Assembly: GCA_965221695.1 (NCBI GenBank) | Contig: OZ244905.1 | Coordinates: 3,475,061-3,539,060 of the forward strand | DNA: 64,000 nt | Source of the DNA: Gammaproteobacteria bacterium | GTDB taxonomy: Bacteria; Pseudomonadota; Gammaproteobacteria; Eutrophobiales; Eutrophobiaceae | Reading direction: 5' to 3' | Shown: piece after piece, positions 30,690 through 52,943 of the stretch | How positions within the stretch are numbered: the stretch's first letter is position 1 | Layout: every line of letters starts with the position of its first letter | Program-made: the position numbers and the translations under genes | The notes under the pieces: model-generated | What the model was told of the DNA's origin: nothing | Database searches by the model: none | The model's input: only the letters and a program-made list of their open reading frames with translations

Positions 30690-31511
30690 TTACAGCATTG
30701 GAAATAGTCTTACTTCCTGCGTCTCTACTGGCGCCTGCTCCAATTCTTTTCGCATATCCTTGCTCTCTGGAATGGGTGAAAGATACTGTCCATTAAATGT
30801 CAGTTCTATTCCCTCCGGGTCGTCGAAGGGGTACGGGGTCAGGGCATAAGTTCCGGGTTCTAAGGGAGTAATGGTAACTTCCGCGTCCTGCTCGGCATCC
30901 ATTGGCACATGGGTGAAGCGGGTTTCTTTGCGGAGGGCTTCGTGAGTGCAGTTGAAGTAGAGCGCCAGAGTGTCAAAGAATTGGAGTTGTTTATAATTCT
31001 GGAACAGGTGGCTTTCTTCGGTTAACTCTGCGGTATCGGGGTCCATTTTGAGTTGTTTCTTGAGACGTTCCTGGCGCTCAAGTTCGCCCTCCAGCATGGT
31101 ATCAGCCAGAGCCCGGTTGTCGTCAGCCAGACTGTCCAGGAGTACTTTGTCGGACATGCCGTAACGGCCGTTGTACAGGCCCCAACTGTGCATGCTGGAG
31201 ATGAGTTCGCAATAGGGGTGATGCGCGCCGTTCAAGTCCGGGGAGGCGCTGCTGGTCTTGACTATGAGGGGGAAAGGAGTTTGTACCAGATTGTAGGGCA
31301 GACCGGTTGAAGGGTCGTGTAACGCCTGGGCGTCAAGTTCCTGCCAACCCGCGTCGTGGTGTCTGATGACGCGCAGCATCAGCGCGCGGGGCTCTACCGG
31401 TTCGAACTGTTCATTGCCAAAATGTTCTGCAAAGCGAGCGGCAAACTCGGTGTGTTGATCCATAGTGATTATGAAGTGTTTTGCTCCTTCATGCGCGCTT
31501 TGTACTATCAT
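30690..31511 (-). CDS. DUF3891-like protein
   Basis: HHDAGW, ISSMH and LQFFDTLALYF patterns typical of this HD-like family. Confidence 0.7.
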   Translation of the reverse strand: MIVQSAHEGAKHFIITMDQHTEFAARFAEHFGNEQFEPVEPRALMLRVIRHHDAGWQELDAQALHDPSTGLPYNLVQTPFPLIVKTSSASPDLNGAHHPYCELISSMHSWGLYNGRYGMSDKVLLDSLADDNRALADTMLEGELERQERLKKQLKMDPDTAELTEESHLFQNYKQLQFFDTLALYFNCTHEALRKETRFTHVPMDAEQDAEVTITPLEPGTYALTPYPFDDPEGIELTFNGQYLSPIPESKDMRKELEQAPVETQEVRLFPML

Positions 31512-31668
31512 GCAGGTTCTCCGGTTGGGCGTGTCGGGTTTGCGTGGCGGATGGCGGTGGTTTCGAGAGAGAGGTCGTGTTTCTCACAGGCAGACGAGAC
31601 GGCTACGATCCCAGGTTGGCAGAGAGGAGTGAGGGCTAGCTTGGATTTTCCATCAATTCGGAGTGTTT

Positions 31669-32430
31669 TCACTGGGCAACAAAACCTCCGTCAACTGACA
31701 GCGCTGCGCCGACTACAAAACTTGCCTGGGAGGAGCAAAGCCAGACCACTGCATCTGCAATTTCTTCCGGGTCTCCCATCCTGCCGACCGGTTCGCGTGA
31801 GATGATTGTGTCGATAATGTCAGGCTGACCTGCAAGGATTTTATCCACCAGCGGAGTTTGCACCGGGCCAGGGCAGACGGCGTTGACGCGTACACCTGTT
31901 TGTGCATATTCCAGCGCGGCGGTTTTTGTCAGACCGATGACACCGTGCTTGCTGGCTGAGTAAGCAGGCATGCCGCCGGATCCTACCAGTCCGAAATTTG
32001 AGGCGTTATTGACGATAGCGCCGCCGCCTTGTTTCAGCATCTGCGTTATTTGATATTTCATACATAACCAGACGCCTTTGAGGTTTATCCCGATGATTCG
32101 ATCCCAGTTTTCTTCGCTGCAATCCGCGGTTTGGCTGAGTTCGCCCTGGATGCCTGCATTATTGAATGCGCAATCGAGACTGCCGTAGGCGTTGACAGTA
32201 GCTGTTACCATGTTTTCTACTGCTTCGGGCTGTGATACGTTCGCGACAACGAACAGGGCTGTTCCCGCTTCCGCCTCAATCTGCGCAATGGTTTCGGCGC
32301 CAGCATTCGGATCGATGTCAGCGACGACGACATTGGCGCCGGCACGCGCGAAAGCGAGGGCAGCGGCGCGGCCTATTCCGGAGCCTGCGCCGGTGATAAG
32401 CGCGGTTTTGTCAGCGAATGTGCCGTTCAT
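31669..32430 (-). CDS. Short-chain dehydrogenase/reductase
   Basis: TGAGSGIG, NNAG and YSASK motifs. Confidence 0.95.
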   Translation of the reverse strand: MNGTFADKTALITGAGSGIGRAAALAFARAGANVVVADIDPNAGAETIAQIEAEAGTALFVVANVSQPEAVENMVTATVNAYGSLDCAFNNAGIQGELSQTADCSEENWDRIIGINLKGVWLCMKYQITQMLKQGGGAIVNNASNFGLVGSGGMPAYSASKHGVIGLTKTAALEYAQTGVRVNAVCPGPVQTPLVDKILAGQPDIIDTIISREPVGRMGDPEEIADAVVWLCSSQASFVVGAALSVDGGFVAQ

Positions 32431-32437
32431 GGTACGC

Positions 32438-32755
32438 TTACTGATAGGTGATGAATCTGTCCGCTTCAACCATATTCAGCACGGCCGGATTCTTATACAT
32501 TTCAACCAGGTTGCAGATCTCCACCAGCGACAAGGCCAGATTGCATAAACGCTGAGCCTCCTCGGGCATTTCGTCATAGTGGTATTGGTTGAGGTAGATG
32601 ATAATTTCTTCCAGTCGCTTTGAGATGGCAGTATGGAACTCAGTGATCTCCTCCATTGAGGACTCCACGCGCTTAGCGATGCGTTCGCGTTCGGTTGGCA
32701 GCGACCAGTCCATGTAAGTCTCTAGCTCGTTGAACGGTTGGGGTAGCATGGCCAT
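32438..32755 (-). CDS. Small hypothetical protein coupled to the Rieske oxygenase gene
   Basis: About 105 aa, helical; starts within 3 nt of the Rieske stop; LP..F.ELE...DWSL.TE.ER...R..SSM pattern. Confidence 0.75.
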   Translation of the reverse strand: MAMLPQPFNELETYMDWSLPTERERIAKRVESSMEEITEFHTAISKRLEEIIIYLNQYHYDEMPEEAQRLCNLALSLVEICNLVEMYKNPAVLNMVEADRFITYQ

Positions 32756-32757
32756 GG

Positions 32758-33939
32758 TCAAACCCCCGCCATTTCACGCTCGACAACGTTATGGAAATGC
32801 CGGATTGTAATCTCCTCATCCTGCATGATCATATGGGAACGAGCGCGGGAGGCCAACCCTTTCTGGATTTGTTCGTGCTGGAATGCGTCTTCCATCAATG
32901 TGTCACGCAAACGACCGATAGTCCATTCCTGGGCCAGCCGTTGGCCAACGTTTTCAGCCGGTGGGAAGTAATAGCGCATCTCCCAGATGCTGCGATCTAC
33001 CGCGAGCGGCCAGAAATTATAGGTCATGAAAAAATCGCCGGACACTCCTTCAAACAGAAGGATGGCGGAATTGGGAAACAGCAGGTACCAGTCGAAATTG
33101 CTTATCCGGTTGTTCATGCGCACATTACTGGCTGCGCTATCCAACCGGTTGAGCAGCGCCTCCGTCGGCAGCGGCTTGTGGTTGGGATTGTACTCGCATG
33201 ACCAGACGCTGTGGTAGTTGTACAGGTTCACATTCGAGAAACGGCAGAATCTGTCATTTTTCATTACAAACGCATCGCCAATGGTAAAGCGGTGCTGGAA
33301 GGGGAGGTGATACAGTTCATTCTGTGCGTCCAGCCCAGTCTTCCAGTTGGCGGCTTCTTCAACTTTATAGGTCTTGAGCAGGCGCATGTTCCCGAAACCG
33401 GCGCCATCGAGTTGGGTTCCCAGGCCGCCAAGGAACTCCCGCAATGTCTCAGCGGGTTCAGGCGCGAGATTGATAAAGATAAAACCTTCCCAGATGTCAC
33501 AGTGAATCGATGTGAGGCCATACCGGCTTTTGTCGAGATTGAAAAAGTTGTCCTCATCTGGCACGAACGCCAGGTTTCCTTCCGGTGTGAACGCCCAACC
33601 GTGAAAGTTGCAGCCAAAACGCCCCGGACATTTGCCGCGATCGTTTGTAACGAGAGTATTGCCTCGGTGCGGACAGACATTGTGTAGCGCGCGAATCTTG
33701 TCGTCATTGCCGCGCACGACGAGGACGGATACGCTACAGACGGCCAGTTCACGCACAAAATAATCACCGGCTTCGGGGATTTCTTCCACGCGGCCGGCCA
33801 TGATCCAGTGACGTCTGAAAATCAGCTCGCGCTCACGCTCGAAATACGCCGGGTTGATGCAGGGTTCTGTAGACACCGGTCCGGCGCCTTCATCGGGATA
33901 TTTCTCCGACCATTGTTTGTCTATCATTCGGGTTTGCAT
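32758..33939 (-). CDS. Rieske non-heme iron oxygenase alpha subunit
   Basis: CPHRG...CNFHGW Rieske ligands; NWK...ELYHLPFQH and C-terminal ED mononuclear Fe ligands. Confidence 0.93.
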   Translation of the reverse strand: MQTRMIDKQWSEKYPDEGAGPVSTEPCINPAYFERERELIFRRHWIMAGRVEEIPEAGDYFVRELAVCSVSVLVVRGNDDKIRALHNVCPHRGNTLVTNDRGKCPGRFGCNFHGWAFTPEGNLAFVPDEDNFFNLDKSRYGLTSIHCDIWEGFIFINLAPEPAETLREFLGGLGTQLDGAGFGNMRLLKTYKVEEAANWKTGLDAQNELYHLPFQHRFTIGDAFVMKNDRFCRFSNVNLYNYHSVWSCEYNPNHKPLPTEALLNRLDSAASNVRMNNRISNFDWYLLFPNSAILLFEGVSGDFFMTYNFWPLAVDRSIWEMRYYFPPAENVGQRLAQEWTIGRLRDTLMEDAFQHEQIQKGLASRARSHMIMQDEEITIRHFHNVVEREMAGV

Positions 33940-34005
33940 ACTATCTTCTCCTGGTTGATAAGCTGATACGGCAAAGATTTGCTCAGCCCGGATTTGCCGG
34001 CGCGT

Positions 34006-36387
34006 TCAAGCTGCTTGTGGCTGATTAATGTTGTTGATTAAGTCCATCACTTGTTGTGGTCCTATTGGCGTTATCTTCGGTACCAGGATGCCGTCGTAGT
34101 CTGACAAGGCATCCGCCAGCGCATTCGATAACGCAATGTGTATCGATAGCATTGCGGCTTCGCCGGCGCCTTTAAAACCACCTTCGGTATACGGCGATGG
34201 AGTCACCACATGCGCGCATTCAATGTCAGGCAGATTTCTTGCATTCGGGATCAGAAAATCCATGAACGATGAGTTTTTCAATTGTCCGTTTTCATCGTAA
34301 TCCAACGATTCCAGCAGGCCCATGCCAATGCCTTGCGCCGCGCCGCCTCGCATCTGTCCGTCAACAATTTTCGGGTTGATCATGTTTCCGCAATCTTCGA
34401 CCGCTACAATGCGTTTGATATCGATAATCCCGGTTTGCGGATCCAGCTCAATCTCTACCGCATGGGAACCGTTCGCATAGGCGGCCGGTGGGTCGTAGTG
34501 GCGTGTGGAACTCAGTGTCGGTTCCACCTCGTCTTCATCCGGTCGGGCGCTGCGGTCGAAATAGGTGATAAAGGCAATCTCAGCTACTGATCTACTGATG
34601 TCTCGGGAGCCTTTAACGAAAATTTCGCCGTCTTCGATGCTCAGGTCGGCCTCATTTGCTTCCATCACATGCGCGGCAATTTTCAATAACTTGTTGCGCA
34701 CGTCTGTCGCCGCTCGAATTACTGACCCGCCACCGATCACTGCGCTGCGGCTGGCAAATGTGCCCATACCGTAGGATGATGTGGCGGTATCGCCGTCCAG
34801 CACGATGACATCTTCAAAAGGCACGCCCAGAGTATCCGCAGCGACTTGGGCAAGTGTCGTTTTCAGCCCCTGTCCGTGGCTGAACTGCCCGCTTTTTACT
34901 GTTACCTTTCCGCTTGGGTCCATTTCCACCGTCGCGGTGTCGTGCAAGGTCGCAGGAAAGCCGCTTTCCGCTGCAGAGCGGCTGCCCCAGTTGGTTTGCT
35001 CGACGAAAAACGACACGCCAATACCCTTGAGTTTTCCTGCCGCGGTCAGCCTGGGTTGTGTTTTTCTCTGCTCGTAATCGGATATCTCCAAACACTTATC
35101 CAGCACTTTGTGGTAGTCGCCGCTATCGTAGGTCTGGTTTGTCACCGTGGTATAGGGGAACTGGTCGACGGGGATGAAGTTTTTACGGTAAAGGTCGATG
35201 ATATCCAGATTCAGCAGACGGGCCGCTTTGGTCATCACCATTTCACGCGCGTAGCTCCCTGAAGACCAGCCGACGCCGCGGTAGGCGCCGGTGTTCATTT
35301 TATTCGTCAGGCACACTACCGATTCAAATTTGATATTCGGCAGCGTGAACGCGCCGGGTGCGCTGGTGTTTGCAGGGACCGATTCAATCAAGCCCGACCA
35401 GGGGTATTGTGAGTACGCGCCCGAGTCGCCGATATTTTTGACCTTCATGCCAAGCATGGCGCCATCGCGCTTGAACGCAATGGACATATGAATCACGCAT
35501 TGCTTCGCATGGGACGCGGCAAGCAGGTGTTCGCGGCGGTCTTCCACCCATTTTACCGGCTGTTTTATCTGTTGCGCGATCCAGGGCACAATGAATTCTT
35601 CCGGAAAGAAATGCGCTTTCTGTCCAAAGCCGCCGCCTACCGTCGGCGCAATCACCCGGATGATTTGTTCCGGGATGTCGAGATGCAGCGCAATAGATGT
35701 GCGCAAGAAATAAGGCATCTGTGTCGATGACCATACCGTCAGGGTATCATCCCAGTTCCAGGTGGCCACCACGCCTCGCGTTTCCATCGGCGCGGCGGTG
35801 GTGCGTCCGGTCATGATTTTTTCACTGACAATGAGGTCGGCATCCGTAAAAGCCTGATCCACATCGCCGTGGCTGTAATGGTCCGAGTAGTAGATGTTGC
35901 TGCCGAGATCCTCATGAAGCAACTGTGCGTCCGGTTGCATTGCCTCTTCAACGTTGGCGCAGACCGGCAGAGGTTCGTATTCGACTTCTATCAATTCGGC
36001 AATATCTTCGGCAATATAACGGCTGGGAGCGACCACTGCAGCGATGATCTCGCCTACGAAACGCGCTTTGCCGGTCGCGAAGAACGGTTGGCGCACTGGT
36101 TTGAGTTCGCCCCGTGTGCCTGGGATGAAAGTGTTAAAACCAGCGCTGAGTTGCTCAGCGGTGAATATCTGCAGGCAATGTGGGTGTTGTTGCGCCGATT
36201 CGAGCTTGATGTGTTTGATACGCGCGTGCGCATGAGTACTTCTGAGAAAGGCCACTTCCTGCATTCCCGGTATCCTGATATCGTCGACGTACTTTGCCTG
36301 TCCCATCAGGATCTGCGGGTCTTCGCTGCGTTTTCGGGAAACGCCGATGTGTTTTGTCACGCCGCTCAGAACGATTGGTTCTTTCAT
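34006..36387 (-). CDS. Xanthine-oxidase-family molybdenum hydroxylase, large subunit
   Basis: GGGFGQK, AYRGVG, HGQG, TFASRS and KGAGE motifs. Confidence 0.93.
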   Translation of the reverse strand: MKEPIVLSGVTKHIGVSRKRSEDPQILMGQAKYVDDIRIPGMQEVAFLRSTHAHARIKHIKLESAQQHPHCLQIFTAEQLSAGFNTFIPGTRGELKPVRQPFFATGKARFVGEIIAAVVAPSRYIAEDIAELIEVEYEPLPVCANVEEAMQPDAQLLHEDLGSNIYYSDHYSHGDVDQAFTDADLIVSEKIMTGRTTAAPMETRGVVATWNWDDTLTVWSSTQMPYFLRTSIALHLDIPEQIIRVIAPTVGGGFGQKAHFFPEEFIVPWIAQQIKQPVKWVEDRREHLLAASHAKQCVIHMSIAFKRDGAMLGMKVKNIGDSGAYSQYPWSGLIESVPANTSAPGAFTLPNIKFESVVCLTNKMNTGAYRGVGWSSGSYAREMVMTKAARLLNLDIIDLYRKNFIPVDQFPYTTVTNQTYDSGDYHKVLDKCLEISDYEQRKTQPRLTAAGKLKGIGVSFFVEQTNWGSRSAAESGFPATLHDTATVEMDPSGKVTVKSGQFSHGQGLKTTLAQVAADTLGVPFEDVIVLDGDTATSSYGMGTFASRSAVIGGGSVIRAATDVRNKLLKIAAHVMEANEADLSIEDGEIFVKGSRDISRSVAEIAFITYFDRSARPDEDEVEPTLSSTRHYDPPAAYANGSHAVEIELDPQTGIIDIKRIVAVEDCGNMINPKIVDGQMRGGAAQGIGMGLLESLDYDENGQLKNSSFMDFLIPNARNLPDIECAHVVTPSPYTEGGFKGAGEAAMLSIHIALSNALADALSDYDGILVPKITPIGPQQVMDLINNINQPQAA

Positions 36388-36402
36388 GTTCAGTCTCCTC
36401 GA

Positions 36403-36891
36403 TTAAGACGGGTCGGTAGACAATGTTGTCGTGGCTGCCGCTACGACCGAATCCACGATCTCATGGTAGCCGGTGCAACGACACAAATTGCCCGACAGCG
36501 CTTCCCGAATTTCGGCGCGTGTAGGCGTCGGGTTTTCTTCCAAAAACGCTTTCATGGTCATCAATATCCCCGGCGTGCAGAACCCGCATTGCAAGCCATG
36601 GTTTTCCCAAAAGGCCTGTTGTAAGGCGTTCAGTTTGCCGTTCTCCGCCAAGGATTCCACTGTCTCAATGGCCTTGCCTTCGGCCTGTAGAGCGAACGTC
36701 AGACAGGAGCGCACCGGTAACCCGTCCATCAATATGGTGCATGAGCCACAGATTCCGTGTTCACATGCGACATGCGTGCCGCTGAGGGCAAGCTCATGTC
36801 GAATGAAGTCAGATAACAGGAGGCGTGGTTCTATTTCCCTGCTGTAAGAGACGCTGTTTACATTAAGCGTGATCGGTTTTTTCTGAATCAT
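36403..36891 (-). CDS. Molybdenum hydroxylase 2Fe-2S small subunit
   Basis: CEHGICGSC, QCGFCTPG and NLCRCTGY motifs. Confidence 0.95.
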   Translation of the reverse strand: MIQKKPITLNVNSVSYSREIEPRLLLSDFIRHELALSGTHVACEHGICGSCTILMDGLPVRSCLTFALQAEGKAIETVESLAENGKLNALQQAFWENHGLQCGFCTPGILMTMKAFLEENPTPTRAEIREALSGNLCRCTGYHEIVDSVVAAATTTLSTDPS

Positions 36892-36934
36892 ATTTTAATG
36901 CCCCAAGAGGTTTGCGCTGTGTTGGTGTGCAAGT

Positions 36935-37810
36935 TCAAGCATCGCGCCCAGCTCGGTTGAATGCGTCTTCAAGGGCGCGCGCAGTCAGCGCTTGCGCGGC
37001 ATTGCGGCGGTATTCTTCAGTAACGTGCACATCGCTTTCCGGATCAATTGCCTCGCCTACATTTAGCGCCGCTTCTTGTAATAGTTCATGCGAGTGCGAG
37101 TTGCCTAATAAGATATTTTCTACTTCCTGGGCGCGCACCGGGGTTGCGGCAACGCCAAACAAGACAACTCTGGAATAACTGCACTTGTTATTGGCATCCA
37201 GGTTGATAATAGCGGCGCTACCGGCCAGCGCAAAATCTCCGGAACGGCGAGCGATTTCATGGAATCCCCATCCGCTGGTTGGCGGTGGCGCCTTGAACAG
37301 AATGGATGACAATATCTCATCAGCCTGCAACGATGTGGTCATATAAGTGATGAAAAAGTTTTCTGCCGGAGTTACCGTTTTATTCGCAGCGCTTTCAATG
37401 GTGAACTCTGCATCCAGTAACAACGACATCGCCGGCAATTCGGAAGCCGGGTCAGCATTGGCGATGCTGCCACCCACAGTGCCTTTGTTGCGAACCTGGA
37501 TATGGGCAATATGCTTTAGTGCATGGGCCAGAACCGGTATTCGTCGGTGTAGCGCCGTATCTATTTCCGCAAATCGATGGGTCGTGGTCGCCTTCACTCT
37601 GATGCCGTCCGGCTCATCACTGATACGATTAGGCTCAGTTATGTTGCTGATATCGATCAATACCCGAGGTCTGGCCAACCTGAAATTCATCGCGGCGATG
37701 AGGCTTTGTCCACCGGCCAGAATCTTTGCGTCATCTCCACATCCCTTTAACAGCGCGCACGCGTGTTGTATATTTTCAGCTCTGTGATAATCAAATTCTG
37801 CTGGTTTCAT
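36935..37810 (-). CDS. Molybdenum hydroxylase FAD medium subunit
   Basis: MKPAEFDY, LAGGQSL and RNKGTVGGSIANADPASE motifs. Confidence 0.95.
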   Translation of the reverse strand: MKPAEFDYHRAENIQHACALLKGCGDDAKILAGGQSLIAAMNFRLARPRVLIDISNITEPNRISDEPDGIRVKATTTHRFAEIDTALHRRIPVLAHALKHIAHIQVRNKGTVGGSIANADPASELPAMSLLLDAEFTIESAANKTVTPAENFFITYMTTSLQADEILSSILFKAPPPTSGWGFHEIARRSGDFALAGSAAIINLDANNKCSYSRVVLFGVAATPVRAQEVENILLGNSHSHELLQEAALNVGEAIDPESDVHVTEEYRRNAAQALTARALEDAFNRAGRDA

Positions 37811-37871
37811 ATCACACTTCTCCCGCAGGTTGAATTTGCATTGTCTCGAAATTATGTCCCATCAAATTTAA

Positions 37872-37898
37872 GGAAACTCCGATTAAGTCAGAGCTTCC
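37872..37898. repeat. 27-bp minimal palindromic copy of the miniature element
   Basis: TTAA-GGAAACTCCGATTAAGTCAGAGCTTCC-TGAA. Confidence 0.75.
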
Positions 37899-37957
37899 TG
37901 AACAGGCGCGCGCGTGTTTTTTCGGCTTTGTAACAGGCAAATTCTGCTGGTTTTATA

Positions 37958-38434
37958 TCACGTTCCTGTCATCGTTTGCGGTGATGTCGGCACATAATGG
38001 TTTCCCATTTCATCGACCAGATCCTTGAAAAAAGTCTTGGCCATATGCTTTGATATTCCGGTTATCACTCTCCCGCCAATGCCGGCGATGGTCCCGCCCA
38101 CATCCGCGTTGCAAGACCAGCGCATCAGGGCGCCGCTGGTGTTCGGTTCAAATCGGCAATCCACTTTCATATTCACATAGCCCGGTCTGCCAGAACCCTC
38201 ACAATCCAGAATGTAATGGTACGGGTACTCGACTTCGGTCGAGCGAATCGTTCCTTCGTAGTCGCCTTTTATTGCCGCCACGCCGAGTGATAACGTTACC
38301 CGGTAGCTGCCGTCTTCCCCAGACGCGATGGCTTTGCAGCCGGGTATGACTTTGGCCAGGATTTCCAGATCATGTAACGCGTGCCATACTTGCGTGGCGT
38401 CATACGGGAAGTCCGTCTCACCTTCAAGTTTCAA
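37958..38434 (-). CDS. CoxG/SRPBCC family protein
   Basis: VWHALHDLEILAKVIPGC and VGGTIAGIGGRVI motifs; TTG start with RBS. Confidence 0.88.
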   Translation of the reverse strand: MKLEGETDFPYDATQVWHALHDLEILAKVIPGCKAIASGEDGSYRVTLSLGVAAIKGDYEGTIRSTEVEYPYHYILDCEGSGRPGYVNMKVDCRFEPNTSGALMRWSCNADVGGTIAGIGGRVITGISKHMAKTFFKDLVDEMGNHYVPTSPQTMTGT

Positions 38435-38446
38435 GCTGTTTTTTCC

Positions 38447-40150: not shown

Positions 40151-40219
40151 GGTTGTTTCCTCCGATATAAGACTACAATTACCCATCACATTCAGATTAT
40201 TTTCAGCAATCCGGGTTCA

Positions 40220-42745: not shown

Positions 42746-42779
42746 ATTATCCCCTCAGTCTCGGACGATAATCTATCGG

Positions 42780-43973
42780 CTATTCCCAGAACAGTATTTT
42801 ACGAACCGGTTCCTTGCTGAGGTTGTCGAGACTCACGATGTCTCGAGGCATTCTGTCGTAGTTGATCCAGAACGTGTTCATGTACCAGTCCATACGAAAG
42901 CCGCTTTTCGGCTCATAAAAGTACTCCCCCGCCCAGATCATCTGCCAATCTTCGAGCTGGTCATTGGCATTTTGCAGACGCGGGTCAGAGGTTGCTACCG
43001 CGCGCCGATTAACCCGCTGGCGTATCAGTTCCCCCTTTGAATCGAATACCTCTTCATACCAACTGCTACCGGTCTTTATGCCGATGATACGACGCTGTTT
43101 GGCGTACCAGTACGACTCTGAGTGCGGGGTTATTTCCAAAATGTATGAGGGTTCGCAGACACCATCCAGTCCTACATTTATCTGTTCGCCCTTGGTCTCT
43201 GTGGTAAAGCCCATGGTTCCCTCAGCTTGACCGGCATACAGTGTATGGCCGACCACCTTGTAATCGATGTCGGGAAAGGGTTTCACCTGGGGAAAGTCTT
43301 CCCAACGTACGATAGTGCCGGGAATCACGTCTTGGCGCGCAGCCTGCGGCAGACGGCGCACGCGCCGTGCGGCCGGCGTGTAGAGGAATTCATCGTTGAA
43401 CTTTTCGCCGTAGTAGATTGTTGTCGAAATGCCCAGCCCGCGAAAATCATTGGGCGCTACAAAGGTAAACATGTATTGCGCGCGCACCTTGTCGATCAGG
43501 CTTTTAGGCAGGCCATCCTGGTTTTGCCGGTAAGCTATCATCCATTCGAACAGGCGTTTGTCGCGCAAGGTGCCGTTCGGAGAAATGAGGTCAATAGTCC
43601 ACTCGGTGATGTAATTATCGCCAAACTCATTAAAATAAAGCGCGGTATAGGAACGGTCATGGACTTCGCGTCCATCATGTTTGACGCGTTCGGCAACCGG
43701 TTTTTCCCAGGGGTAGGGCAGTCCCGGTTGGACCCAGCGGTCGTAAATTGCGGGGCCGATCGCCTTGTAGTCAACATTATGCCAAGGCTGTGGCTTCCAG
43801 TTGACAGTCTCATCGCCCCATTTGCAGGTGTAGGTTCCGGGTTCGGCGCCTGGCGCAATGGAATATTCCTTGTCCAGGATCATTTCTGCGCCGACCGACC
43901 CTGAGGAAATGAAAAATGACAGAGGCAACAGGATGGTTAAGAAGGTGGATACAACGCGGTTCATTGATTTCAT
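42780..43973 (-). CDS. Periplasmic DUF1329/LolA-like protein
   Basis: Signal peptide; APNDFRG and YTPAARRVRRL motifs. Confidence 0.72.
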   Translation of the reverse strand: MKSMNRVVSTFLTILLPLSFFISSGSVGAEMILDKEYSIAPGAEPGTYTCKWGDETVNWKPQPWHNVDYKAIGPAIYDRWVQPGLPYPWEKPVAERVKHDGREVHDRSYTALYFNEFGDNYITEWTIDLISPNGTLRDKRLFEWMIAYRQNQDGLPKSLIDKVRAQYMFTFVAPNDFRGLGISTTIYYGEKFNDEFLYTPAARRVRRLPQAARQDVIPGTIVRWEDFPQVKPFPDIDYKVVGHTLYAGQAEGTMGFTTETKGEQINVGLDGVCEPSYILEITPHSESYWYAKQRRIIGIKTGSSWYEEVFDSKGELIRQRVNRRAVATSDPRLQNANDQLEDWQMIWAGEYFYEPKSGFRMDWYMNTFWINYDRMPRDIVSLDNLSKEPVRKILFWE

Positions 43974-44099
43974 GAGATAGCCTCCAGGATTAAAACAAAA
44001 AACTTCACCGGAATACCGGTTTGTTCACACGCCAGTCAACTATTGGGCCAGGCCCAACCGAATACTTCGCTGAGCATAGCCTATGGTTTGATTTACTCA

Positions 44100-44113
44100 T
44101 AGAATCGTTTCTA
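44100..44113. promoter_or_regulatory. LacI-type operator 1
   Basis: TAGAATCGTTTCTA, 13/14 match to palindrome TAGAAACGTTTCTA. Confidence 0.75.
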
Positions 44114-44124
44114 TTTTCTGTTCA

Positions 44125-44138
44125 TTGTAACGTTTCTA
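44125..44138. promoter_or_regulatory. LacI-type operator 2
   Basis: TTGTAACGTTTCTA (reverse complement TAGAAACGTTACAA). Confidence 0.7.
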
Positions 44139-44168
44139 TTTATTATATGTTTCGATTTTGATTATAGC

Positions 44169-45203
44169 TTACATTCGAGAACAGTTTGGCGCGGCGCTGG
44201 ATTCCCGCAGCACCAGTTCAACGGGATGAGGGCGTAGCAGTTCCGGCTTTTGCTGGCACTGGGTCATGGCAATAAGCAGTTTCGCTGCGCTCATACCCAT
44301 TTCGTAAGCTGGCTGACGCACTGTGGTTAATCGGGGAGTCAGCAATTGCGCCGTGGGGATATCGTCAAAGCCGACTATACTCACCTCACCCGGCACGTGG
44401 ATGCTATTCGACCTGCAGTACTCCAGCGCGCCGATGGCCATCAGATCATTAGCGCACAACAACGCGCTTGGACGCTGGTTTTTCGGCGAATTAAGGAACG
44501 ATTCTGCCAACTGGTAGCCTGAATCCATCTGGTAATCGCCCTCCCGAATACCCATTTCATCGGGATTAATGCCACCCATCGCCAGCCCTTCACGGTAACC
44601 GGCAAGACGCTGTTCCGAGGTCCAGTGCGAGCCAGGTCCTGCGACACAGGCAAATCGTTTATGGCCCAGTTCCACCAGGTGGGAAGCTATCTCCCTCGCG
44701 CCGCGACGGCCGTCAGCAACTACGGTCGGCAGGTCCAGGCCGGGAAACCGCTCATCTACCAGGACCACCGGTCCGATTGACTGTAACTTGAGCAGAGACA
44801 GGGGCGATTCCTGGAAACCACTTTCATATATGACGCCATTCACCCGTTTGCTGCGCAGCAGTCGTTCATTTCCGAATTCCGCTTCTTCGGTGTTCTCAGC
44901 GCTACAGAGCACGACGAGCACATCATGCATTGCCGCGGCTTTTACGACCCCGCGGGCAAGCAGGCTGAAAAACTGGTTCACCAGGTCGGGGACGACCAGG
45001 CCGATTGTTGATGCCTGTTGCCGTTTCAGGTTACGGGCGGATTCGTTGGGAATATAATCCAAGGCCCGGATAGCATTCAAAACCCGTCTTCTGCGCGCCT
45101 CGCTTACCTGCCCTCTGTTGTTCAGCACGTAACTGACAGTGCTGACTGAGACTTGCGCTTGTTCAGCCACATCCTTCATCGTCGGGTTATGGTTTTGCTT
45201 CAT
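44169..45203 (-). CDS. LacI-family transcriptional regulator
   Basis: TMKDVAEQAQVSVSTVSYVLN HTH; YIPNESARNL hinge; NDLMAIG and GFDD motifs. Confidence 0.95.
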   Translation of the reverse strand: MKQNHNPTMKDVAEQAQVSVSTVSYVLNNRGQVSEARRRRVLNAIRALDYIPNESARNLKRQQASTIGLVVPDLVNQFFSLLARGVVKAAAMHDVLVVLCSAENTEEAEFGNERLLRSKRVNGVIYESGFQESPLSLLKLQSIGPVVLVDERFPGLDLPTVVADGRRGAREIASHLVELGHKRFACVAGPGSHWTSEQRLAGYREGLAMGGINPDEMGIREGDYQMDSGYQLAESFLNSPKNQRPSALLCANDLMAIGALEYCRSNSIHVPGEVSIVGFDDIPTAQLLTPRLTTVRQPAYEMGMSAAKLLIAMTQCQQKPELLRPHPVELVLRESSAAPNCSRM

Positions 45204-45982
45204 ATGTGGTCGGCGCTCCCGCCAGCGGCCCAGGACACGATGGAAGCCCAGAGCTCTGCATAATGGGGCCAGTTCATGAACTCATTTGGAGCCCAGTGCG
45301 GCGCCACATCGGATGCGAAGGCCACGCTTCGGCCACGGCCTGCCTTGCCTGCCACAAGCAGTGGGTCGTCACCGTATGCGGCAATCACGGTGGCGCCAGG
45401 TTTTGCCTTCAGCTTGTTATAGCCGAGCAGGATTGGCCAATCGGCAGGCGTTTTTCCCAACGCAGGATGATCCGGAGTTGGAAATGTCGCTTGCAATCCC
45501 TCAGGGACTTCCACTCTGTCGTCGTGGTTCAGCATGGTAACGGGAAGGACCGAAGCCAGGGGGCTGGACTGGTAACGCGCGCGACCATCTATACCCGAGA
45601 AAGACATGTAACCCCCGACCATAAGCAGACCGCCGCCCTCCCTGACATAATCTGCCAGCAAAACCAGGCGATTTGTAGTGCGTTCTGAGCGCAGGAAGGT
45701 TTCATCGCAGAGCAGGAAGGAATTGGAACCTATATCGCTCAAGATGACCACATCGAAGCTTGCGATATCCTGTTTTGCAACAGGAAAGCGTCCGGAGACT
45801 TCGTGCGCCCTAATGTAGGTGACACTAAAACCGGCATTTTCCAGAGCCGAAAGAAAAACACCGGCGCCTTCCTCGTATTCGGTTGTATGAAACTGGTCGA
45901 ATCCTTTCATATGCACAGTATGTTTAACCCAGGATTCGCCAACTACCAATACACTGAGCGAAGAACTGGTCACTGAGTTCAT
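45200..45982 (-). CDS. Class I glutamine amidotransferase-like protein (DUF1355-like)
   Basis: VGESW, KGFDQF, LSDIGSNSFL, MVGGYMSFSG and SDVAPHW motifs. Confidence 0.85.
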   Translation of the reverse strand: MNSVTSSSLSVLVVGESWVKHTVHMKGFDQFHTTEYEEGAGVFLSALENAGFSVTYIRAHEVSGRFPVAKQDIASFDVVILSDIGSNSFLLCDETFLRSERTTNRLVLLADYVREGGGLLMVGGYMSFSGIDGRARYQSSPLASVLPVTMLNHDDRVEVPEGLQATFPTPDHPALGKTPADWPILLGYNKLKAKPGATVIAAYGDDPLLVAGKAGRGRSVAFASDVAPHWAPNEFMNWPHYAELWASIVSWAAGGSADHI

Positions 45983-46040
45983 GTCGAATAGGCCTCTACT
46001 GGTAATTCAATCTGATATTGTTTGCTGGCTTAAGTATTAA

Positions 46041-46562
46041 TCAAAGCAGCCGGTCGGTTACGGATTCGGGCAGTTCCCGGGCTTCCGGGACCTGTGGGAG
46101 AGCGATCTCGCGCATATCCCAGCCTATCATCTTATCTGCAATTAATTCAAAGACCCGTTTGCCGGTAGCAGCGCGATATTTGAAATAGCTCTCGGCGTAG
46201 GGATGACCGACATAAAAGTATTTTTCAAATATCAGCGCATCGACCTGTTGCAACAGGTCGGGGTCGGTAACCTGCTTTATGGAGCCATGTATGCGCACGC
46301 CGTGAACGGTGGCATACTCGTCACCGGAATCGACCAGCGCCGTCAGAGCGCTACCTGCCTCGACATTGTCGGCGTGTCGTCCAGCCGCATCGACGGGCAG
46401 AAAAATCCGTTTTTCATGCACCACATAGTACAGTGGCGACATATGGATTGAACCGTCACTGTTTGTTGTGGCGATGCGTATATTTTGTTGCCGGGCAAGA
46501 TAGGCCCAGCGTTTATCTCCGCGCAGGGGCAGGAATGTGCTGGCTGTAGGTTCCTGGCTCAT
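46041..46562 (-). CDS. Pyridoxamine-5'-phosphate-oxidase-like split-barrel flavin/F420-binding protein
   Basis: IATTNSDGSIHMSPLYY, LVDSGDEY..VHGVRIHG and GWD motifs; start MSQEP with RBS GGAGG. Confidence 0.8.
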   Translation of the reverse strand: MSQEPTASTFLPLRGDKRWAYLARQQNIRIATTNSDGSIHMSPLYYVVHEKRIFLPVDAAGRHADNVEAGSALTALVDSGDEYATVHGVRIHGSIKQVTDPDLLQQVDALIFEKYFYVGHPYAESYFKYRAATGKRVFELIADKMIGWDMREIALPQVPEARELPESVTDRLL

Positions 46563-46563
46563 T

Positions 46564-47028
46564 TTACTTTCCTCCGTTGCGCAGGGATTTGAGTTGTTCG
46601 CTGAATTCCGGCGCTTCAACAAGACCGTAGCGAGGCGATGGGCCGCTGGTCCAGAAAAACACGGTTTTCACGCCGGTTGCTTCTAACGTGTATTTATATC
46701 CTCCAGGCAAATAGATGTGCTCGCCGACACCCGCTTCAAGGTATATCACACGACCTGCAGCGTCTTCGACCTTCAGCCGGATTTTTCCCTCCAGACAATA
46801 GTGGGTTTCATCAAAATTGGTCTGGTCCCAGTGATAATCGTCATGGTCGGGTTCCTGGTAGCAATACCCGTGGCGAAAATGGCGCGCGTCGTCACGTTCC
46901 TGGGAGATAAAAATATTGGTGCCGATACCTTTCGCAAAAGGCAACCTGGGCATGGCATGGATTTCTTCCGGGTTGATGACGCGGGGGTATCTCATTGAGC
47001 CATCGTCATAGAGGCTGTAGTCAGTCAT
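46564..47028 (-). CDS. Cupin-fold protein (EutQ/DUF861-like)
   Basis: DETHYCLEGKIRL and GEHIYLPGG cupin motifs; RBS GGGAGG. Confidence 0.7.
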   Translation of the reverse strand: MTDYSLYDDGSMRYPRVINPEEIHAMPRLPFAKGIGTNIFISQERDDARHFRHGYCYQEPDHDDYHWDQTNFDETHYCLEGKIRLKVEDAAGRVIYLEAGVGEHIYLPGGYKYTLEATGVKTVFFWTSGPSPRYGLVEAPEFSEQLKSLRNGGK

Positions 47029-47054
47029 AATGGATTTCCTCCCTTTGCGGGTAA

Positions 47055-47068
47055 AAGAATCGTTTCTT
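47055..47068. promoter_or_regulatory. LacI-type operator 3 upstream of the cupin operon
   Basis: AAGAATCGTTTCTT. Confidence 0.7.
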
Positions 47069-47223
47069 GTCGTTTATATCCTAATCGGACGCAGTATTTC
47101 ATCAAAGCAGAAATGTTGTTGCGGATAGCAACCGGATCCAATATATACACTAGACCAGGGAGGTATTTCCGTCAAGCGGAAATTTCTAATATTGAATTTG
47201 TGTCACAGTGAACAGCGGTATGG

Positions 47224-47252
47224 TTGACCAGCAAAATTAGAAACGTTACTAT
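47224..47252 (+). promoter_or_regulatory. Sigma70 promoter overlapped by LacI-type operator 4
   Basis: TTGACC-N17-TACTAT with TAGAAACGTTACTA at 47238-47251. Confidence 0.78.
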
Positions 47253-47290
47253 TTCCAAAAAAGCTTACCTAACATTGCAAGGGGATAGAA

Positions 47291-48733
47291 ATGGGCTTTC
47301 ATCACAACATTATCATTGACGTTGACAACTATAAACATTGTCATTATTCGCTCTATCCGCCCGGCACGGAATATGTATCGAGCTATATTGAATCCCGGGG
47401 GGGACTGCTTCCATCAACGATGTTTGTCGGCTTGCAGGCGTATTTGCGCGAATATCTTATGCGCCCTATCACCTTGGAAGATATCGACGAAGCAGAGTTT
47501 GTAGAACGTGAACAGGGCATGCATTTCAATCGTGATAACTGGCTGGGGATACTTAACGACCACGGCGGTTTTCTGCCGGTCGAGATTGAAGCAGTGCCTG
47601 AGGGCACGGTGTTGCCGCCGAAAAATGTGCTGGTACAGTTAATCAATACCGATCCGAAATATTACTGGGCAACCAGCTTTTTCGAAACGTCACTATTGCG
47701 TGCGGTCTGGTATCCCACCACAATCGGCAGTATCAGTTGGCTTAGCAAACAAATTATCCGGGATTCTCTGGAACATACTTCGGATAACCCGGGAGTTTTG
47801 CGCCATATGCTGCACGATTACGGCGCGCGCGGAGTGAGTTCGCAGCAGTCCGCCGCTCTGGGCGGTCTGGCCCATCTGGTCAATTTCAGCCAGAGTGATA
47901 CCTTGCCCGGGATTATCGCCGCGAAACGCTACTACAACGCCGGCCATGTCTCAAATTCAGGTCCGAATTCCGAACATGCCGGCTTCTGCGCTTGGGGTAG
48001 GGAGCACGAAGCCGCGGCGCTCAGCAATATGCTGGATATGTATGCGGATAATGGAGTCGCGTTGCTGCTTACCGATACCTATGACCATGAGAACTGTGTT
48101 AAGAATATCATCGGCAAGGAGTTGAAAGAGAAAATTCAGAATTTTCCAGGATTGGTCGGCGTGCGACCCGACTCCGGCGATGTGGTGCAGGTCACTTCCG
48201 ATACTACGGAGTGGCTCATGGAGGCGTTTGGCTACGAAGTCAATTCCAAAGGTTACAAGGTATTGCCTCCTTACCTCCGGGTGGTTCAGGGTGATGGGGT
48301 GAATTTCCCGGTTTTGCCGAAGATATTTATCGAACTGGAACGGCGCGGGTTTTCAGCCGAGAATGCAATCTATGGCATGGGTGGCGGATTGTTGCAACAC
48401 TTTCATCGAGATACTATGAATTTCGGGCAGAAGGCCAGCGCGGTCTGTGTCAATGGAGAATGGCGGGATATTTACAAGGCTCCGACCGGTTCTGATTTTA
48501 AGGTGTCCAAGAAAGGTCGGTTGGCGCTCAAATTTGAAAACGGCACGTACACTACCGTGCCGCGGGATTCCATTCCTCCGGAAGAAAACGTGTTGATTCC
48601 GGTCTTCAGAAATGGAAAGTTGTTGAAGAAATGGGATTTCACTGAGTTGATTGAGCGTAGCGAACGCGAATACCCAGAGTCATACTATCAGGATATTGTC
48701 AGGCCACTGCGTGAAGCTCGCAAAGCCGATTAA
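47291..48733 (+). CDS. Nicotinamide phosphoribosyltransferase (NAMPT/NadV)-like protein, divergent
   Basis: DNYK, VSSYIESRGG, WYPTT, HDYGARGVSS, SEH, VRPDSGD, QGDG, GMGGGLLQ and SKKGRL motifs. Confidence 0.88.
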   Translation: MGFHHNIIIDVDNYKHCHYSLYPPGTEYVSSYIESRGGLLPSTMFVGLQAYLREYLMRPITLEDIDEAEFVEREQGMHFNRDNWLGILNDHGGFLPVEIEAVPEGTVLPPKNVLVQLINTDPKYYWATSFFETSLLRAVWYPTTIGSISWLSKQIIRDSLEHTSDNPGVLRHMLHDYGARGVSSQQSAALGGLAHLVNFSQSDTLPGIIAAKRYYNAGHVSNSGPNSEHAGFCAWGREHEAAALSNMLDMYADNGVALLLTDTYDHENCVKNIIGKELKEKIQNFPGLVGVRPDSGDVVQVTSDTTEWLMEAFGYEVNSKGYKVLPPYLRVVQGDGVNFPVLPKIFIELERRGFSAENAIYGMGGGLLQHFHRDTMNFGQKASAVCVNGEWRDIYKAPTGSDFKVSKKGRLALKFENGTYTTVPRDSIPPEENVLIPVFRNGKLLKKWDFTELIERSEREYPESYYQDIVRPLREARKAD

Positions 48734-48801
48734 CCCGGCAATGATCTCCCGGGCTTGCCGGACTTAGCCCAAATACTCCTTGAGATCAGGGTATCAACCT
48801 G

Positions 48802-49452
48802 ATGACCTGTTTGCATGTTTTTGATATGGATGGCACTTTGCTCAAGGGTTCTGCCTGTTGGGAAATCTCACGTTGCGTTGGTGTTTTGGATGAAACCCTG
48901 GCCATTGAAGAGGTTTGGGCAAAAGGCGAGATTAGCGACAATGACTTCTGGATAAGATGTCTTCCATTGTGGGACGGCTTGACCGATAAGGTTATAGACC
49001 ATGCTTTTGCCAACAGCCCCTGGCTTGATGGTGTGGAGGCTGTTTTTGCTGATATTTGTGCGCGCAAAGAAAAAAGTGTCGTGATCTCACAGTCACCGTT
49101 GTTTTTTGTGGAGAGGCTGCAGCGGTGGGGGGTGGATTTTACCTACGGCGCGCGGGTGACCCCGGGAAATTCAGCGGGCGCAGACCAATTGGTGACCAGC
49201 AGAGATAAATTAGACATCGCGCGTCAATTACTGTCGGAGCTTCGTCTGAGTAGTGACAGTTGTATCGCCTATGGCGACTCCATGTCAGACTTTGACCTGT
49301 TCAGGTCTCTTCCCAATACCGTGGCAATTAACGCGAGAGAGAAAATTCGTGATCTGGCTCAAGTCTGTTATGACGGGTCGAACTTATGGAGTGGCTATTC
49401 CCTTGGACGAAAATTGCTTGAAAACCAGGCATCTGAAAATATTTCAATATGA
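48802..49452 (+). CDS. HAD-IB phosphatase (phosphoserine-phosphatase-like)
   Basis: FDMDGTL, ISQS and YGDSMSD motifs. Confidence 0.85.
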   Translation: MTCLHVFDMDGTLLKGSACWEISRCVGVLDETLAIEEVWAKGEISDNDFWIRCLPLWDGLTDKVIDHAFANSPWLDGVEAVFADICARKEKSVVISQSPLFFVERLQRWGVDFTYGARVTPGNSAGADQLVTSRDKLDIARQLLSELRLSSDSCIAYGDSMSDFDLFRSLPNTVAINAREKIRDLAQVCYDGSNLWSGYSLGRKLLENQASENISI

Positions 49453-51812: not shown

Positions 51813-51830
51813 GGAATCATTACCAAAACG

Positions 51831-52940: not shown

Positions 52941-52943
52941 TCA

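What the first reader, a model, noticed from the sequence alone, without database searches (positions are those of the whole stretch)
30690..49452. Candidate undescribed LacI-controlled pathway joining N-heterocycle oxidation, a lipophile-type envelope module and a NAMPT-like phosphoribosyltransferase
Seen: three transcription units share one operator motif. Unit A is DUF1329-like, RND/MMPL, DUF1302-like, CoxG, Mo-hydroxylase M/S/L, Rieske oxygenase, small protein, SDR (and perhaps DUF3891). Unit B is cupin, PPOX-fold protein, DUF1355, LacI. Unit C, divergent, is a NAMPT-like enzyme plus HAD phosphatase. Known: Mo hydroxylase followed by a Rieske oxygenase is the opening logic of quinoline and picolinate degradation, LacI proteins usually sense sugars or nucleosides, and NAMPT couples a base to PRPP. 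I know of no characterised pathway combining these parts. Inference: uptake and conversion of a modified pyridine or purine-like base, possibly through a ribosylated intermediate that also acts as inducer.
Basis: partly seen in the sequence, partly recalled or inferred. Interest (0 to 1): 0.85.

Follow-up and report, generated by a model that had tools for sequence, protein, structure and literature searches.

The report
Ribose-primed, F420-driven pyridine breakdown cluster
This bacterium carries an unstudied gene set, shared with soil actinobacteria, that probably breaks down the very stable pyridine ring by first hanging a ribose sugar on it, then reducing it with cofactor F420 and recycling the sugar, which could explain an old pyridine-degradation route whose first step was never found.

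Summary
All listed genes and the shared LacI operator are real. The conserved heart is not unit A but six genes (cupin, F420-type PPOX protein, DUF1355, LacI, NAMPT-like, HAD), together in 45 of 56 near-full loci across Actinobacteria and Proteobacteria. Among 78 loci their neighbours are ribokinase (56), PRPP synthase (49), nucleoside hydrolase (43), aldehyde dehydrogenases (49), F420-dependent G6P dehydrogenase (28), glutarate CoA-transferase-like (24), glutaryl-CoA dehydrogenase (17) and ammonium transporter (14); many carry the same operator. F420 synthesis is in 48 of 49 carrier genomes tested versus about 10 of 200 class members. Best reading (0.55): pyridine is N-phosphoribosylated, dephosphorylated, reduced by F420H2, opened to glutaraldehyde plus ammonia and fed to glutaryl-CoA, with ribose recycled to PRPP. 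This matches the Nocardia Z1 'glutaric dialdehyde' route. Unit A (lipophile importer, quinoline-oxidoreductase-like Mo enzyme, Rieske, SDR, DUF3891) is a gammaproteobacterial add-on that in relatives continues into NicX/maleamate genes: probably a parallel oxidative route for related pyridines. No substrate or reaction was tested; nothing in ten open-access literature searches describes it. Cultured Rhodococcus and Pseudonocardia carry it.

The parts
47291..48733 (+). NAMPT-like phosphoribosyltransferase (core); proposed pyridine N-phosphoribosyltransferase
   Evidence: PF04095+PF18127; NF006629 above cut-off; catalytic residues kept, pocket remodelled; in 66 of 78 loci
48802..49452 (+). HAD-IB phosphatase (core); proposed ribotide to riboside
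   Evidence: PF12710, TIGR01488 above cut-off; 58 of 78 loci
46564..47028 (-). Cupin of a small new family (core); proposed hydration/ring-opening step; lacks the His metal motif
   Evidence: no Pfam hit; 177 relatives; cupin fold
46041..46562 (-). PPOX-fold (split-barrel) protein (core); proposed F420H2-dependent pyridinium reductase
   Evidence: PF01243; TIGR03618 34.5 bits, below cut-off 79; only PDB hit Rv2991/1RFE; next to the cupin in 77 of 78 loci
45200..45982 (-). DUF1355 / GATase1-like protein (core); proposed release of ribose or ammonia
   Evidence: PF07090; PDB 3SOZ, 2GK3, uncharacterised; 69 of 78 loci
44169..45203 (-). LacI-family repressor (core)
   Evidence: PF00356+PF13377; only close LacI of this kind in the genome; 69 of 78 loci
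47237..47252 (.). Operator before NAMPT-like gene
   Evidence: rank 2 in genome
47054..47069 (.). Operator before cupin
   Evidence: rank 10
44099..44139 (.). Two operators before unit A (44099-44114, 44124-44139)
   Evidence: ranks 1 and 3; conserved in relatives
42780..43973 (-). DUF1329/LolA-like periplasmic protein (unit A importer)
40220..42745 (-). RND/MMPL membrane protein (unit A importer)
38447..40150 (-). DUF1302-like outer-membrane protein (unit A importer)
   Evidence: start
37958..38434 (-). CoxG-like accessory protein
36935..37810 (-). Mo-hydroxylase FAD subunit
36403..36891 (-). Mo-hydroxylase 2Fe-2S subunit
34006..36387 (-). Mo-hydroxylase large subunit, closest solved relative quinoline 2-oxidoreductase
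   Evidence: 1T3Q 632 bits, next 474
32758..33939 (-). Rieske oxygenase alpha subunit, no assigned family
   Evidence: PF00355+PF00848; all NCBIfam hits far below cut-off
32438..32755 (-). Small Rieske-associated protein, unknown function
   Evidence: no Pfam; beside a Rieske gene at 4 of 4 places in G000; unnamed Atlas clusters
31669..32469 (-). SDR dehydrogenase
   Evidence: NF004818 above cut-off
30690..31511 (-). DUF3891, HD-domain-like metalloprotein (lead)
   Evidence: PF13030; H20, H52-D53, H108, D180 invariant and H98 nearly so in 54 rows; best Z 6.7, nearly all rows HD domains

Best explanation
The core is a catabolic pathway that activates pyridine (or a small, simple pyridine) by a recyclable ribosyl group. 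(1) The NAMPT-like enzyme joins the ring nitrogen to PRPP, giving an NMN-like pyridinium ribotide. (2) The HAD removes the phosphate. (3) The PPOX protein transfers one hydride from F420H2 to the now electron-poor ring, giving a dihydropyridine riboside. (4) Cupin, DUF1355, often a SnoaL-like protein and a nucleoside hydrolase hydrolyse this bis-enamine to glutaraldehyde, ammonia and ribose (C5H5N + 2[H] + 2 H2O = C5H8O2 + NH3; my arithmetic). (5) Aldehyde dehydrogenases (or a tungsten-type AOR) give glutarate, then glutaryl-CoA. (6) Ribokinase and PRPP synthase regenerate PRPP; Fgd or Fno regenerates F420H2. LacI senses a riboside. In this lineage an importer for lipophilic compounds and an oxidative cassette (unit A) for related pyridine-ring compounds has been put under the same repressor. 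Shown here: gene content, synteny, operator conservation, residue conservation, F420 co-occurrence. Inferred: the substrate, every reaction, and the order of steps 2-4.
For: Six core genes together in 45 of 56 near-full loci; neighbours in 78 loci: ribokinase 56, PRPP synthase 49, nucleoside hydrolase 43, any ALDH 49, Fgd 28, CaiB 24, GcdH 17, Amt 14, fbiC 11 (gene orders). Fgd passes TIGR03554; PRS, fbiC, cofE and LOG pass their models; CaiB's best model is succinate-glutarate CoA-transferase but below cut-off. GcdH: top PDB hits are glutaryl-CoA dehydrogenases, 612 bits. A second ALDH type is closest to alpha-ketoglutaric semialdehyde dehydrogenase, below cut-off. The operator lies before ALDH (about 30 loci), CaiB (7) and Amt (5) (hand count); 118 intergenic sites versus 2.4 in shuffles. 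cofD in 48 of 49 carrier genomes, including all 25 non-actinobacterial ones (50 of 78 loci given), versus 10 of 200 other class members at comparable strength; alphaproteobacterial loci carry cof genes inside the cluster. G000 has fbiC, cofC/D/E, Fno, ribokinase, de novo nadC, and a non-decarboxylating GcdH-like gene next to glutaconyl-CoA decarboxylase. NAMPT is known to phosphoribosylate N-heterocyclic inhibitors (PMC4186856, PMC11056997, passages). Nocardia Z1 cleaves pyridine between N and C2 via glutaric dialdehyde (PMC3637104, passage). Relatives link the island to 2,5-dihydroxypyridine dioxygenase-like genes.
Against: No substrate test, growth phenotype or expression data. The residue equal to human Asp219, named as a ligand contact in PMC11056997, is kept in 67 of 67, which fits an amide or other polar substituent; V242G and I309G enlarge while G217Q and A244N fill the pocket, so the net shape is unclear. 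CaiB and GcdH are next to the core in only 24 and 17 of 78 loci, all actinobacterial. G000 and its 8 carrier congeners have no GcdH ortholog (present at 46% or more in 34 of the other 39); their alternative decarboxylase is genus-wide (23 of 23), so it is not specific support. G000's locus has no ALDH, AOR, ribokinase or PRS with an operator. Four gammaproteobacterial carrier genomes (G061-G064) show neither Fno nor Fgd (completeness not given). The PPOX protein is below the TIGR03618 cut-off and FDOR-B proteins also use FMN, FAD or haem (bioRxiv 10.1101/2020.08.24.261826, passages). A nucleoside hydrolase acting on the pyridinium riboside would make a futile cycle. One R. jostii strain tested in PMC10005059 did not grow on pyridine (its genome was not examined).
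Confidence: 0.55

Rival explanations
1. Same chemistry, but the substrate is nicotinamide or nicotinamide riboside: NMN, NR, reduced NR, ring opening, deamidation by DUF1355 and loss of C1 to reach glutarate.
For: Asp219, His247 and the aromatic clamp are kept; the protein passes NF006629; a glutamine-amidotransferase-fold protein could remove an amide; 3-carboxy-pyridines can end at glutarate in Azorhizobium (recalled, no call).
Against: Five pocket positions differ from human, Xanthomonas and G039 NAMPT and are fixed across the family; no decarboxylase or amidase family is conserved in the loci; simpler nicotinamidase routes exist (recalled).
Confidence: 0.15
2. The substrate is a hydroxypyridine/pyridone (possibly made by unit A's Mo enzyme); reduction of N-ribosyl-2-pyridone and amide hydrolysis by DUF1355 gives glutarate semialdehyde directly.
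For: Also balances to C5 (my arithmetic); gives Asp219 a partner and DUF1355 an amide; would tie unit A to the core; CoxL ortholog tracks the core in the genus (9 of 22: the 8 carriers plus fragmented G006).
Against: Most carriers have no linked Mo enzyme (CoxM in 13 of 78 loci); many have two ALDH types, which suits a dialdehyde; a neutral pyridone is a poorer nucleophile and hydride acceptor (chemical inference).
Confidence: 0.12
3. In this lineage ribosylation primes oxidation: the Mo enzyme hydroxylates the pyridinium riboside to a pyridone riboside, which after loss of ribose goes by Rieske hydroxylation and NicX to maleamate and fumarate.
For: Unit A shares the operator; congeners continue with a second Rieske, NicX-like, alpha/beta hydrolase and maleate-isomerase-like genes, others with an isochorismatase; the genus lacks classical GcdH; a Mo aldehyde oxidase acting on NR has been proposed (PMC10880730, passage).
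Against: The oxidative cassette occurs with TetR and no adjacent core (L131, L108/L109); cupin (93-95%) and PPOX (77-87%) stay conserved in congeners; G000 lacks the second Rieske ortholog and maleate isomerase.
Confidence: 0.12
4. Ordinary NAD salvage gene, or an inducer-making/detoxifying side branch, next to unrelated catabolic genes.
For: It is the only PF04095 gene in G000; databases name it nicotinamide or nicotinate phosphoribosyltransferase.
Against: Absent from 14 of 22 congeners and all 14 other family members searched; tied to cupin/PPOX, ribose recycling, F420 and glutarate genes across phyla; paralogous NAMPT-cupin-PPOX sets duplicate together.
Confidence: 0.05

Closest known systems
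Nocardia sp. Z1 pyridine pathway (N-C2 cleavage via glutaric dialdehyde; cited in PMC3637104, passage only)
   Same: Predicted intermediates glutaraldehyde, glutarate semialdehyde, glutarate; actinobacterial host range; reductive logic.
   Different: That route is physiological; I found no genes for it in the searches run, and ribosylation or F420 is not mentioned in the passage seen. Whether Z1 carries this cluster was not testable.
Nicotinamide phosphoribosyltransferase (human NAMPT; Xanthomonas 7YQO)
   Same: Fold, phospho-His247, Tyr18/aromatic193/Arg311 clamp, Asp219, PRPP-binding motifs.
   Different: G217Q, V242G, A244N, S275L/I, I309G, F193Y fixed in the family; catabolic gene context with HAD and ribose recycling.
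FDOR-B / Rv2991-like F420-dependent split-barrel oxidoreductases
   Same: PPOX fold; nearest solved relative Rv2991; strict co-occurrence with F420 synthesis.
   Different: Below TIGR03618 cut-off; always paired with a cupin; no pyridinium-reducing member known to me.
Quinoline 2-oxidoreductase QorMSL and maleamate (nic/pic) pathways
   Same: Unit A Mo enzyme is closest to QorL; relatives carry NicX-like and downstream maleamate-type genes.
   Different: Rieske proteins fit no named family; small protein, DUF3891 and a DUF1329/RND/DUF1302 importer are added; LacI control; NicX block missing at G000's locus.
Arthrobacter sp. 68b pyr pathway (recalled; paper not held)
   Same: Degrades unsubstituted pyridine without prior hydroxylation.
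   Different: O2-dependent flavin monooxygenase cleavage to succinate semialdehyde; no PRPP, F420 or glutarate.

Membership tests
NAMPT (EC 2.4.2.12) | NAMPT_N plus NAPRTase domains; family model score | tested here: met
   (NF006629 506 vs 405)
NAMPT (EC 2.4.2.12) | His247, Tyr18/Phe193/Arg311 clamp, Asp219 | tested here: met
   H229, R292, D203 in 67 of 67; Y14 and Y177 aromatic in 67 of 67
NAMPT (EC 2.4.2.12) | Nicotinamide pocket/tunnel residues G217, V242, A244, S275, I309 | tested here: not met
   Q201 67/67, G224 63/67, N226 66/67, L/I258 63/67, G290 67/67
NAMPT (EC 2.4.2.12) | Converts nicotinamide to NMN | not testable with these tools
   needs assay
F420-dependent PPOX class (TIGR03618 / FDOR-B) | Score over family cut-off | tested here: not met
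   34.5 vs 79.05 bits
F420-dependent PPOX class (TIGR03618 / FDOR-B) | Restricted to F420-producing genomes | tested here: met
   48 of 49 carrier genomes have cofD; the miss is a 1.5-Mb MAG
F420-dependent PPOX class (TIGR03618 / FDOR-B) | Binds and turns over F420 | not testable with these tools
   needs assay
Metal-binding cupin enzymes | His-His-Glu-His metal site | tested here: not met
   only the Glu (E74) aligns; Tyr113 replaces the last His
Quinoline 2-oxidoreductase-type Mo hydroxylase | M/S/L subunits, AYRGVG loop and catalytic Glu as in QorL | tested here: met
   (role of these residues recalled)
Quinoline 2-oxidoreductase-type Mo hydroxylase | Hydroxylates quinoline | not testable with these tools
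   needs assay
Aerobic CO dehydrogenase | TIGR02416 cut-off and Cys-containing active-site loop | tested here: not met
   528 vs 991 bits; loop is AYRGVG
Maleamate (nic) pathway | 2,5-dihydroxypyridine dioxygenase plus deformylase, amidase, isomerase in the cluster | tested here: inconclusive
   NicX-like (7CN3, E 2e-70) and look-alikes in relatives; absent at G000's locus, NicX-like 56% elsewhere
Nocardia Z1 reductive pyridine route | Genes to take a C5 dialdehyde to glutaryl-CoA in the same regulon | tested here: inconclusive
   met in many actinobacterial loci; unlinked in G000
Nocardia Z1 reductive pyridine route | Growth on pyridine with glutaric dialdehyde as intermediate | not testable with these tools
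   needs cultures
Arthrobacter pyr pathway | PyrA-type flavin monooxygenase | not tested
   no reference sequence in hand
HD-domain metalloenzymes (DUF3891) | HD fold and H..HD..H..H..D ligands | tested here: inconclusive
   ligand-like residues conserved; Foldseek E above 0.1; Z 6.7, rmsd 4.0, 132 aligned

The most novel reading that the evidence does not exclude
A new principle of aromatic catabolism: a NAMPT-derived enzyme turns unsubstituted pyridine into an NAD-like pyridinium riboside so that F420H2 can dearomatise it without oxygen, with ribose recycled as a catalytic handle. This is the missing genetic basis of the Nocardia Z1 glutarate route, with duplicated NAMPT-cupin-PPOX sets for methylpyridines, and in this gammaproteobacterial lineage the same riboside may also feed a Mo-hydroxylase branch.
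Probability: 0.5. Interest if true: 0.93.

Novelty: categorically new. Interest (0 to 1): 0.86.

Why it matters
If right, it supplies the unknown first steps of reductive pyridine degradation, a new way to break an aromatic ring (covalent activation by a recyclable ribose, oxygen-independent hydride transfer from F420H2), first functions for DUF1355 and a new cupin family, and a re-annotation of hundreds of 'nicotinate phosphoribosyltransferases' (334 close proteins). It is directly testable: R. opacus DSM 43205, R. jostii NBRC 16295 and several Pseudonocardia type strains carry the cluster. It would matter for treatment of coking and oil wastewaters and for making pyridine nucleoside analogues.

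Tried and rejected
Literature: ten searches of the open-access library found no description of the cluster, of DUF1355, or of pyridine ribosylation as catabolism; subscription journals are not covered. Watson and Cain 1975, Casaite 2020, Kaiser 1996, Houghton and Cain 1972 and Lee 2001 were not held, so statements on them are recall or second-hand. No supplements were read; proteomic or transcriptomic supplements on Rhodococcus grown on pyridines could bear on the claim. Complex prediction for PPOX plus cupin: no verdict. Promoter/terminator scans were at chance level for promoters. NAMPT tree was the quick version with a poorly placed outgroup; no donor or direction of transfer is claimed. 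Foldseek of DUF3891 gave no match at E 0.001. CsiD/GlaH route for glutarate not found in G000. First ORF clustering picked shadow frames and was discarded; counts come. CO dehydrogenase rejected for unit A. Purine-type substrate rejected for lack of any purine-linked gene in the loci. Earlier-findings look-ups by sequence and words were empty.

Full report
Observation. Four LacI-type palindromes lie in the two intergenic gaps, before DUF1329 (44099, 44124), the cupin (47054) and the NAMPT-like gene (47237). The exact pattern occurs 3 times against 0.03 expected, though it was drawn from these sites. A matrix trained only on 123 sites from non-gammaproteobacterial loci ranks them 1, 3, 10 and 2 in the 3.54-Mb genome; no other site stands above shuffled background. 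The regulon in G000 is therefore local. Binding by this LacI is inferred.

Distribution. Of 22 congeners, 8 carry the NAMPT-like gene and all 8 have the whole cluster in the same order; the Mo-hydroxylase ortholog is in those 8 plus one fragmented genome. A scan of species-representative genomes with a cupin alignment gave 83 matches, of which 80 were kept as 78 loci, from Gamma- and Alphaproteobacteria, bins labelled delta, and many Actinobacteria, including cultured Rhodococcus opacus DSM 43205, R. jostii NBRC 16295, Pseudonocardia, Planosporangium, Nocardioides, Frankia and Methyloligella. Within 10 kb of the cupin: PPOX 77, DUF1355 69, LacI 69, NAMPT-like 66, HAD 58 of 78; all six in 45 of 56 near-full loci. 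The NAMPT-like proteins are 63-97% identical to the window's. Unit A's importer genes are in only 11-12 of 78 loci, 8 of them the congeners. So B+C is the system and A is an add-on. Many loci are kin (about 20 Pseudonocardia), so the counts are not independent events.

What the neighbours say. In the 78 loci: ribokinase 56, PRPP synthase 49, nucleoside hydrolase 43 (hydrolase, LOG or PsuG-like 51), any aldehyde dehydrogenase 49, Fgd 28, SnoaL-like 25-28, CaiB 24, GcdH 17, Amt 14, fbiC 11, cofD 8 (identities). Three themes follow. (a) Ribose is released and returned to PRPP, so ribosylation is transient. (b) F420H2 is needed: cofD is in 48 of 49 carrier genomes (50 of 78 loci given), all 25 non-actinobacterial ones included, against 9 over cut-off plus one split gene in 200 other members of the class; alphaproteobacterial loci carry Fgd and cof genes inside the cluster; the PPOX protein's only PDB relative is Rv2991, classed as F420-dependent in bioRxiv 10.1101/2020.08.24.261826 (passages). 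(c) The carbon leaves as a C5 aldehyde to glutaryl-CoA and nitrogen as ammonia: GcdH is firmly assigned, CaiB and the second ALDH are best-hit assignments below cut-off. The operator precedes ALDH in about 30 loci, CaiB in 7 and Amt in 5 (hand count); 118 intergenic sites versus 2.4 in shuffles. Four Acetobacteraceae loci and several others show no site at two mismatches.

The phosphoribosyltransferase. Against human NAMPT the catalytic His, Arg311, Asp313, Asp219 and the aromatic clamp are kept, while G217Q, I309G (67 of 67), A244N (66), V242G (63) and S275L/I (63) are fixed changes. G217, H191 and D219 form the tunnel wall and NAMPT phosphoribosylates N-heterocyclic inhibitors (PMC4186856, PMC11056997; passages). 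The chemistry is therefore precedented; the substrate is not fixed by these residues, and the kept Asp219 is the best argument for a polar substituent.

Mechanism (inferred). Pyridine plus PRPP gives a pyridinium ribotide; HAD gives the riboside; PPOX adds a hydride from F420H2; hydrolysis of the dihydropyridine gives glutaraldehyde, ammonia and ribose; ALDHs, CoA-transferase and GcdH finish; ribokinase and PRS close the cycle. One hydride and two waters balance exactly. Nocardia Z1 is reported to cleave pyridine between N and C2 via glutaric dialdehyde (PMC3637104, passage); from recall, cell extracts never showed the first step, which a need for PRPP, ATP and F420H2 would explain. The jobs of cupin (no His metal site), DUF1355, SnoaL-like protein and hydrolase are guesses; the swap of DUF1355 plus ribokinase for a PsuG-like gene in 4 loci suggests DUF1355 releases the sugar.

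Does G000 close the pathway? It has fbiC and cofC/D/E, Fno (10 of 10 genus genomes tested), ribokinase, one PRS and unlinked ALDH and AOR genes. It and its 8 congeners lack a classical GcdH (34 of the other 39 genomes have one at 46% or more) and G000 lacks CsiD, but it has a non-decarboxylating GcdH-like gene (430 versus cut-off 470) beside glutaconyl-CoA decarboxylase. That removes the objection but is genus-wide and so not support. In four other gammaproteobacterial carriers I found neither Fno nor Fgd; this is unexplained.

Unit A. The Mo enzyme is closest to quinoline 2-oxidoreductase. In congeners and in G061/G062 the block continues with a second Rieske protein, a NicX-like dioxygenase, an alpha/beta hydrolase, and maleate-isomerase-like or isochorismatase-like genes: an oxidative pyridine-ring route to fumarate. 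An earlier agent note on another genome (e1-3066136, seen after my own) reads that block the same way; it is an unchecked AI note, not support. The cassette also occurs with a TetR and no core within the DNA fetched (L131, L108/L109). I read it as a separately evolved route for related, probably more lipophilic or substituted pyridines, co-induced here (about 0.6), rather than a step on the riboside (about 0.2). G000 lacks the second Rieske and isomerase orthologs, though a NicX-like gene lies elsewhere. DUF3891 is probably an HD-domain metalloprotein (a lead).

Novelty. Ten searches of the open-access library found no account of this cluster or of ribosylation-primed ring reduction; subscription papers and five older or key papers were out of reach. 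Papers seen: passages of PMC3637104 (plus its reference list), PMC10005059, PMC4186856, PMC11056997, PMC10880730, PMC6525221, PMC8562490 and bioRxiv 2020.08.24.261826; others as listings only. The parts belong to known folds, but I know no catabolic pathway with this logic.

Verdict. Real, conserved across phyla, apparently undescribed. Confidence that the core is a PRPP- and F420-dependent catabolic module ending at glutaryl-CoA about 0.8; that the substrate is pyridine or a simple pyridine by the route given 0.55. Interest 0.86.

Noticed in passing
G000:C1:327700-332100 (L116:7710-12109): Non-decarboxylating glutaryl-CoA dehydrogenase-like gene next to glutaconyl-CoA decarboxylase alpha (PDB 1PIX, E 1.7e-222) and a Na+-pump beta subunit; the alpha subunit is in 23 of 23 genomes of the genus. 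This energy-conserving route is known to me from anaerobes; unexpected in a gammaproteobacterial genus rich in oxygenases.
   Followed up: partly
G000 genome: Complete F420 synthesis (fbiC, cofC, cofD, cofE) and Fno in a gammaproteobacterium; 12 Mo-hydroxylase large-subunit and 18 Rieske-like hits.
   Followed up: partly
L101, L103, L104, L105: Variant of the core without DUF1355 and ribokinase but with a pseudouridine-5'-phosphate glycosidase-like gene (PF04227) and, in three, a nitrilase; suggests DUF1355 and PsuG-like proteins do the same ribose-release job.
   Followed up: partly
L122 (Rhodococcus sp. DK17 plasmid pDK1) 14065-40459; L054, L059, L060, L066, L081, L102: Paralogous sets with two or three cupin-PPOX pairs and NAMPT-like copies with other pocket residues; on pDK1 with cof genes, pgl, PRS, two ALDHs, two CoA-transferases and two acyl-CoA dehydrogenases, possibly for methylpyridines.
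   Followed up: partly
window 30479-30510 and about 37870-37902: Palindromic intergenic repeat, 56 places in the genome at up to 3 mismatches; REP-like.
   Followed up: partly
window 49497-59488: ExbB-ExbD-ExbD-VWA-TPR operon, nucleoside hydrolase and ribose-type ABC transporter beside the cluster; four relatives have the operator before ExbB, G000 does not.
   Followed up: partly
L028, L030, L032-L034, L039 between TPR and HAD: Tungsten-type aldehyde oxidoreductase and SnoaL-like gene present in relatives but missing at G000's locus; a 67% AOR homolog lies elsewhere in G000.
   Followed up: partly
G000:C1:2604000-2635000 (L113, L114): Second pyridine-ring region: NicX-like gene, isochorismatase-like gene and several Mo hydroxylases.
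   Followed up: no
L085, L100: Record titles (Bifidobacterium breve, Klebsiella) look inconsistent with gene content and tree position; probably mislabelled bins.
   Followed up: no
window 30690-31511: DUF3891 looks like an HD-domain di-metal protein and is often near N-heterocycle genes in 80 metagenome loci.
   Followed up: partly
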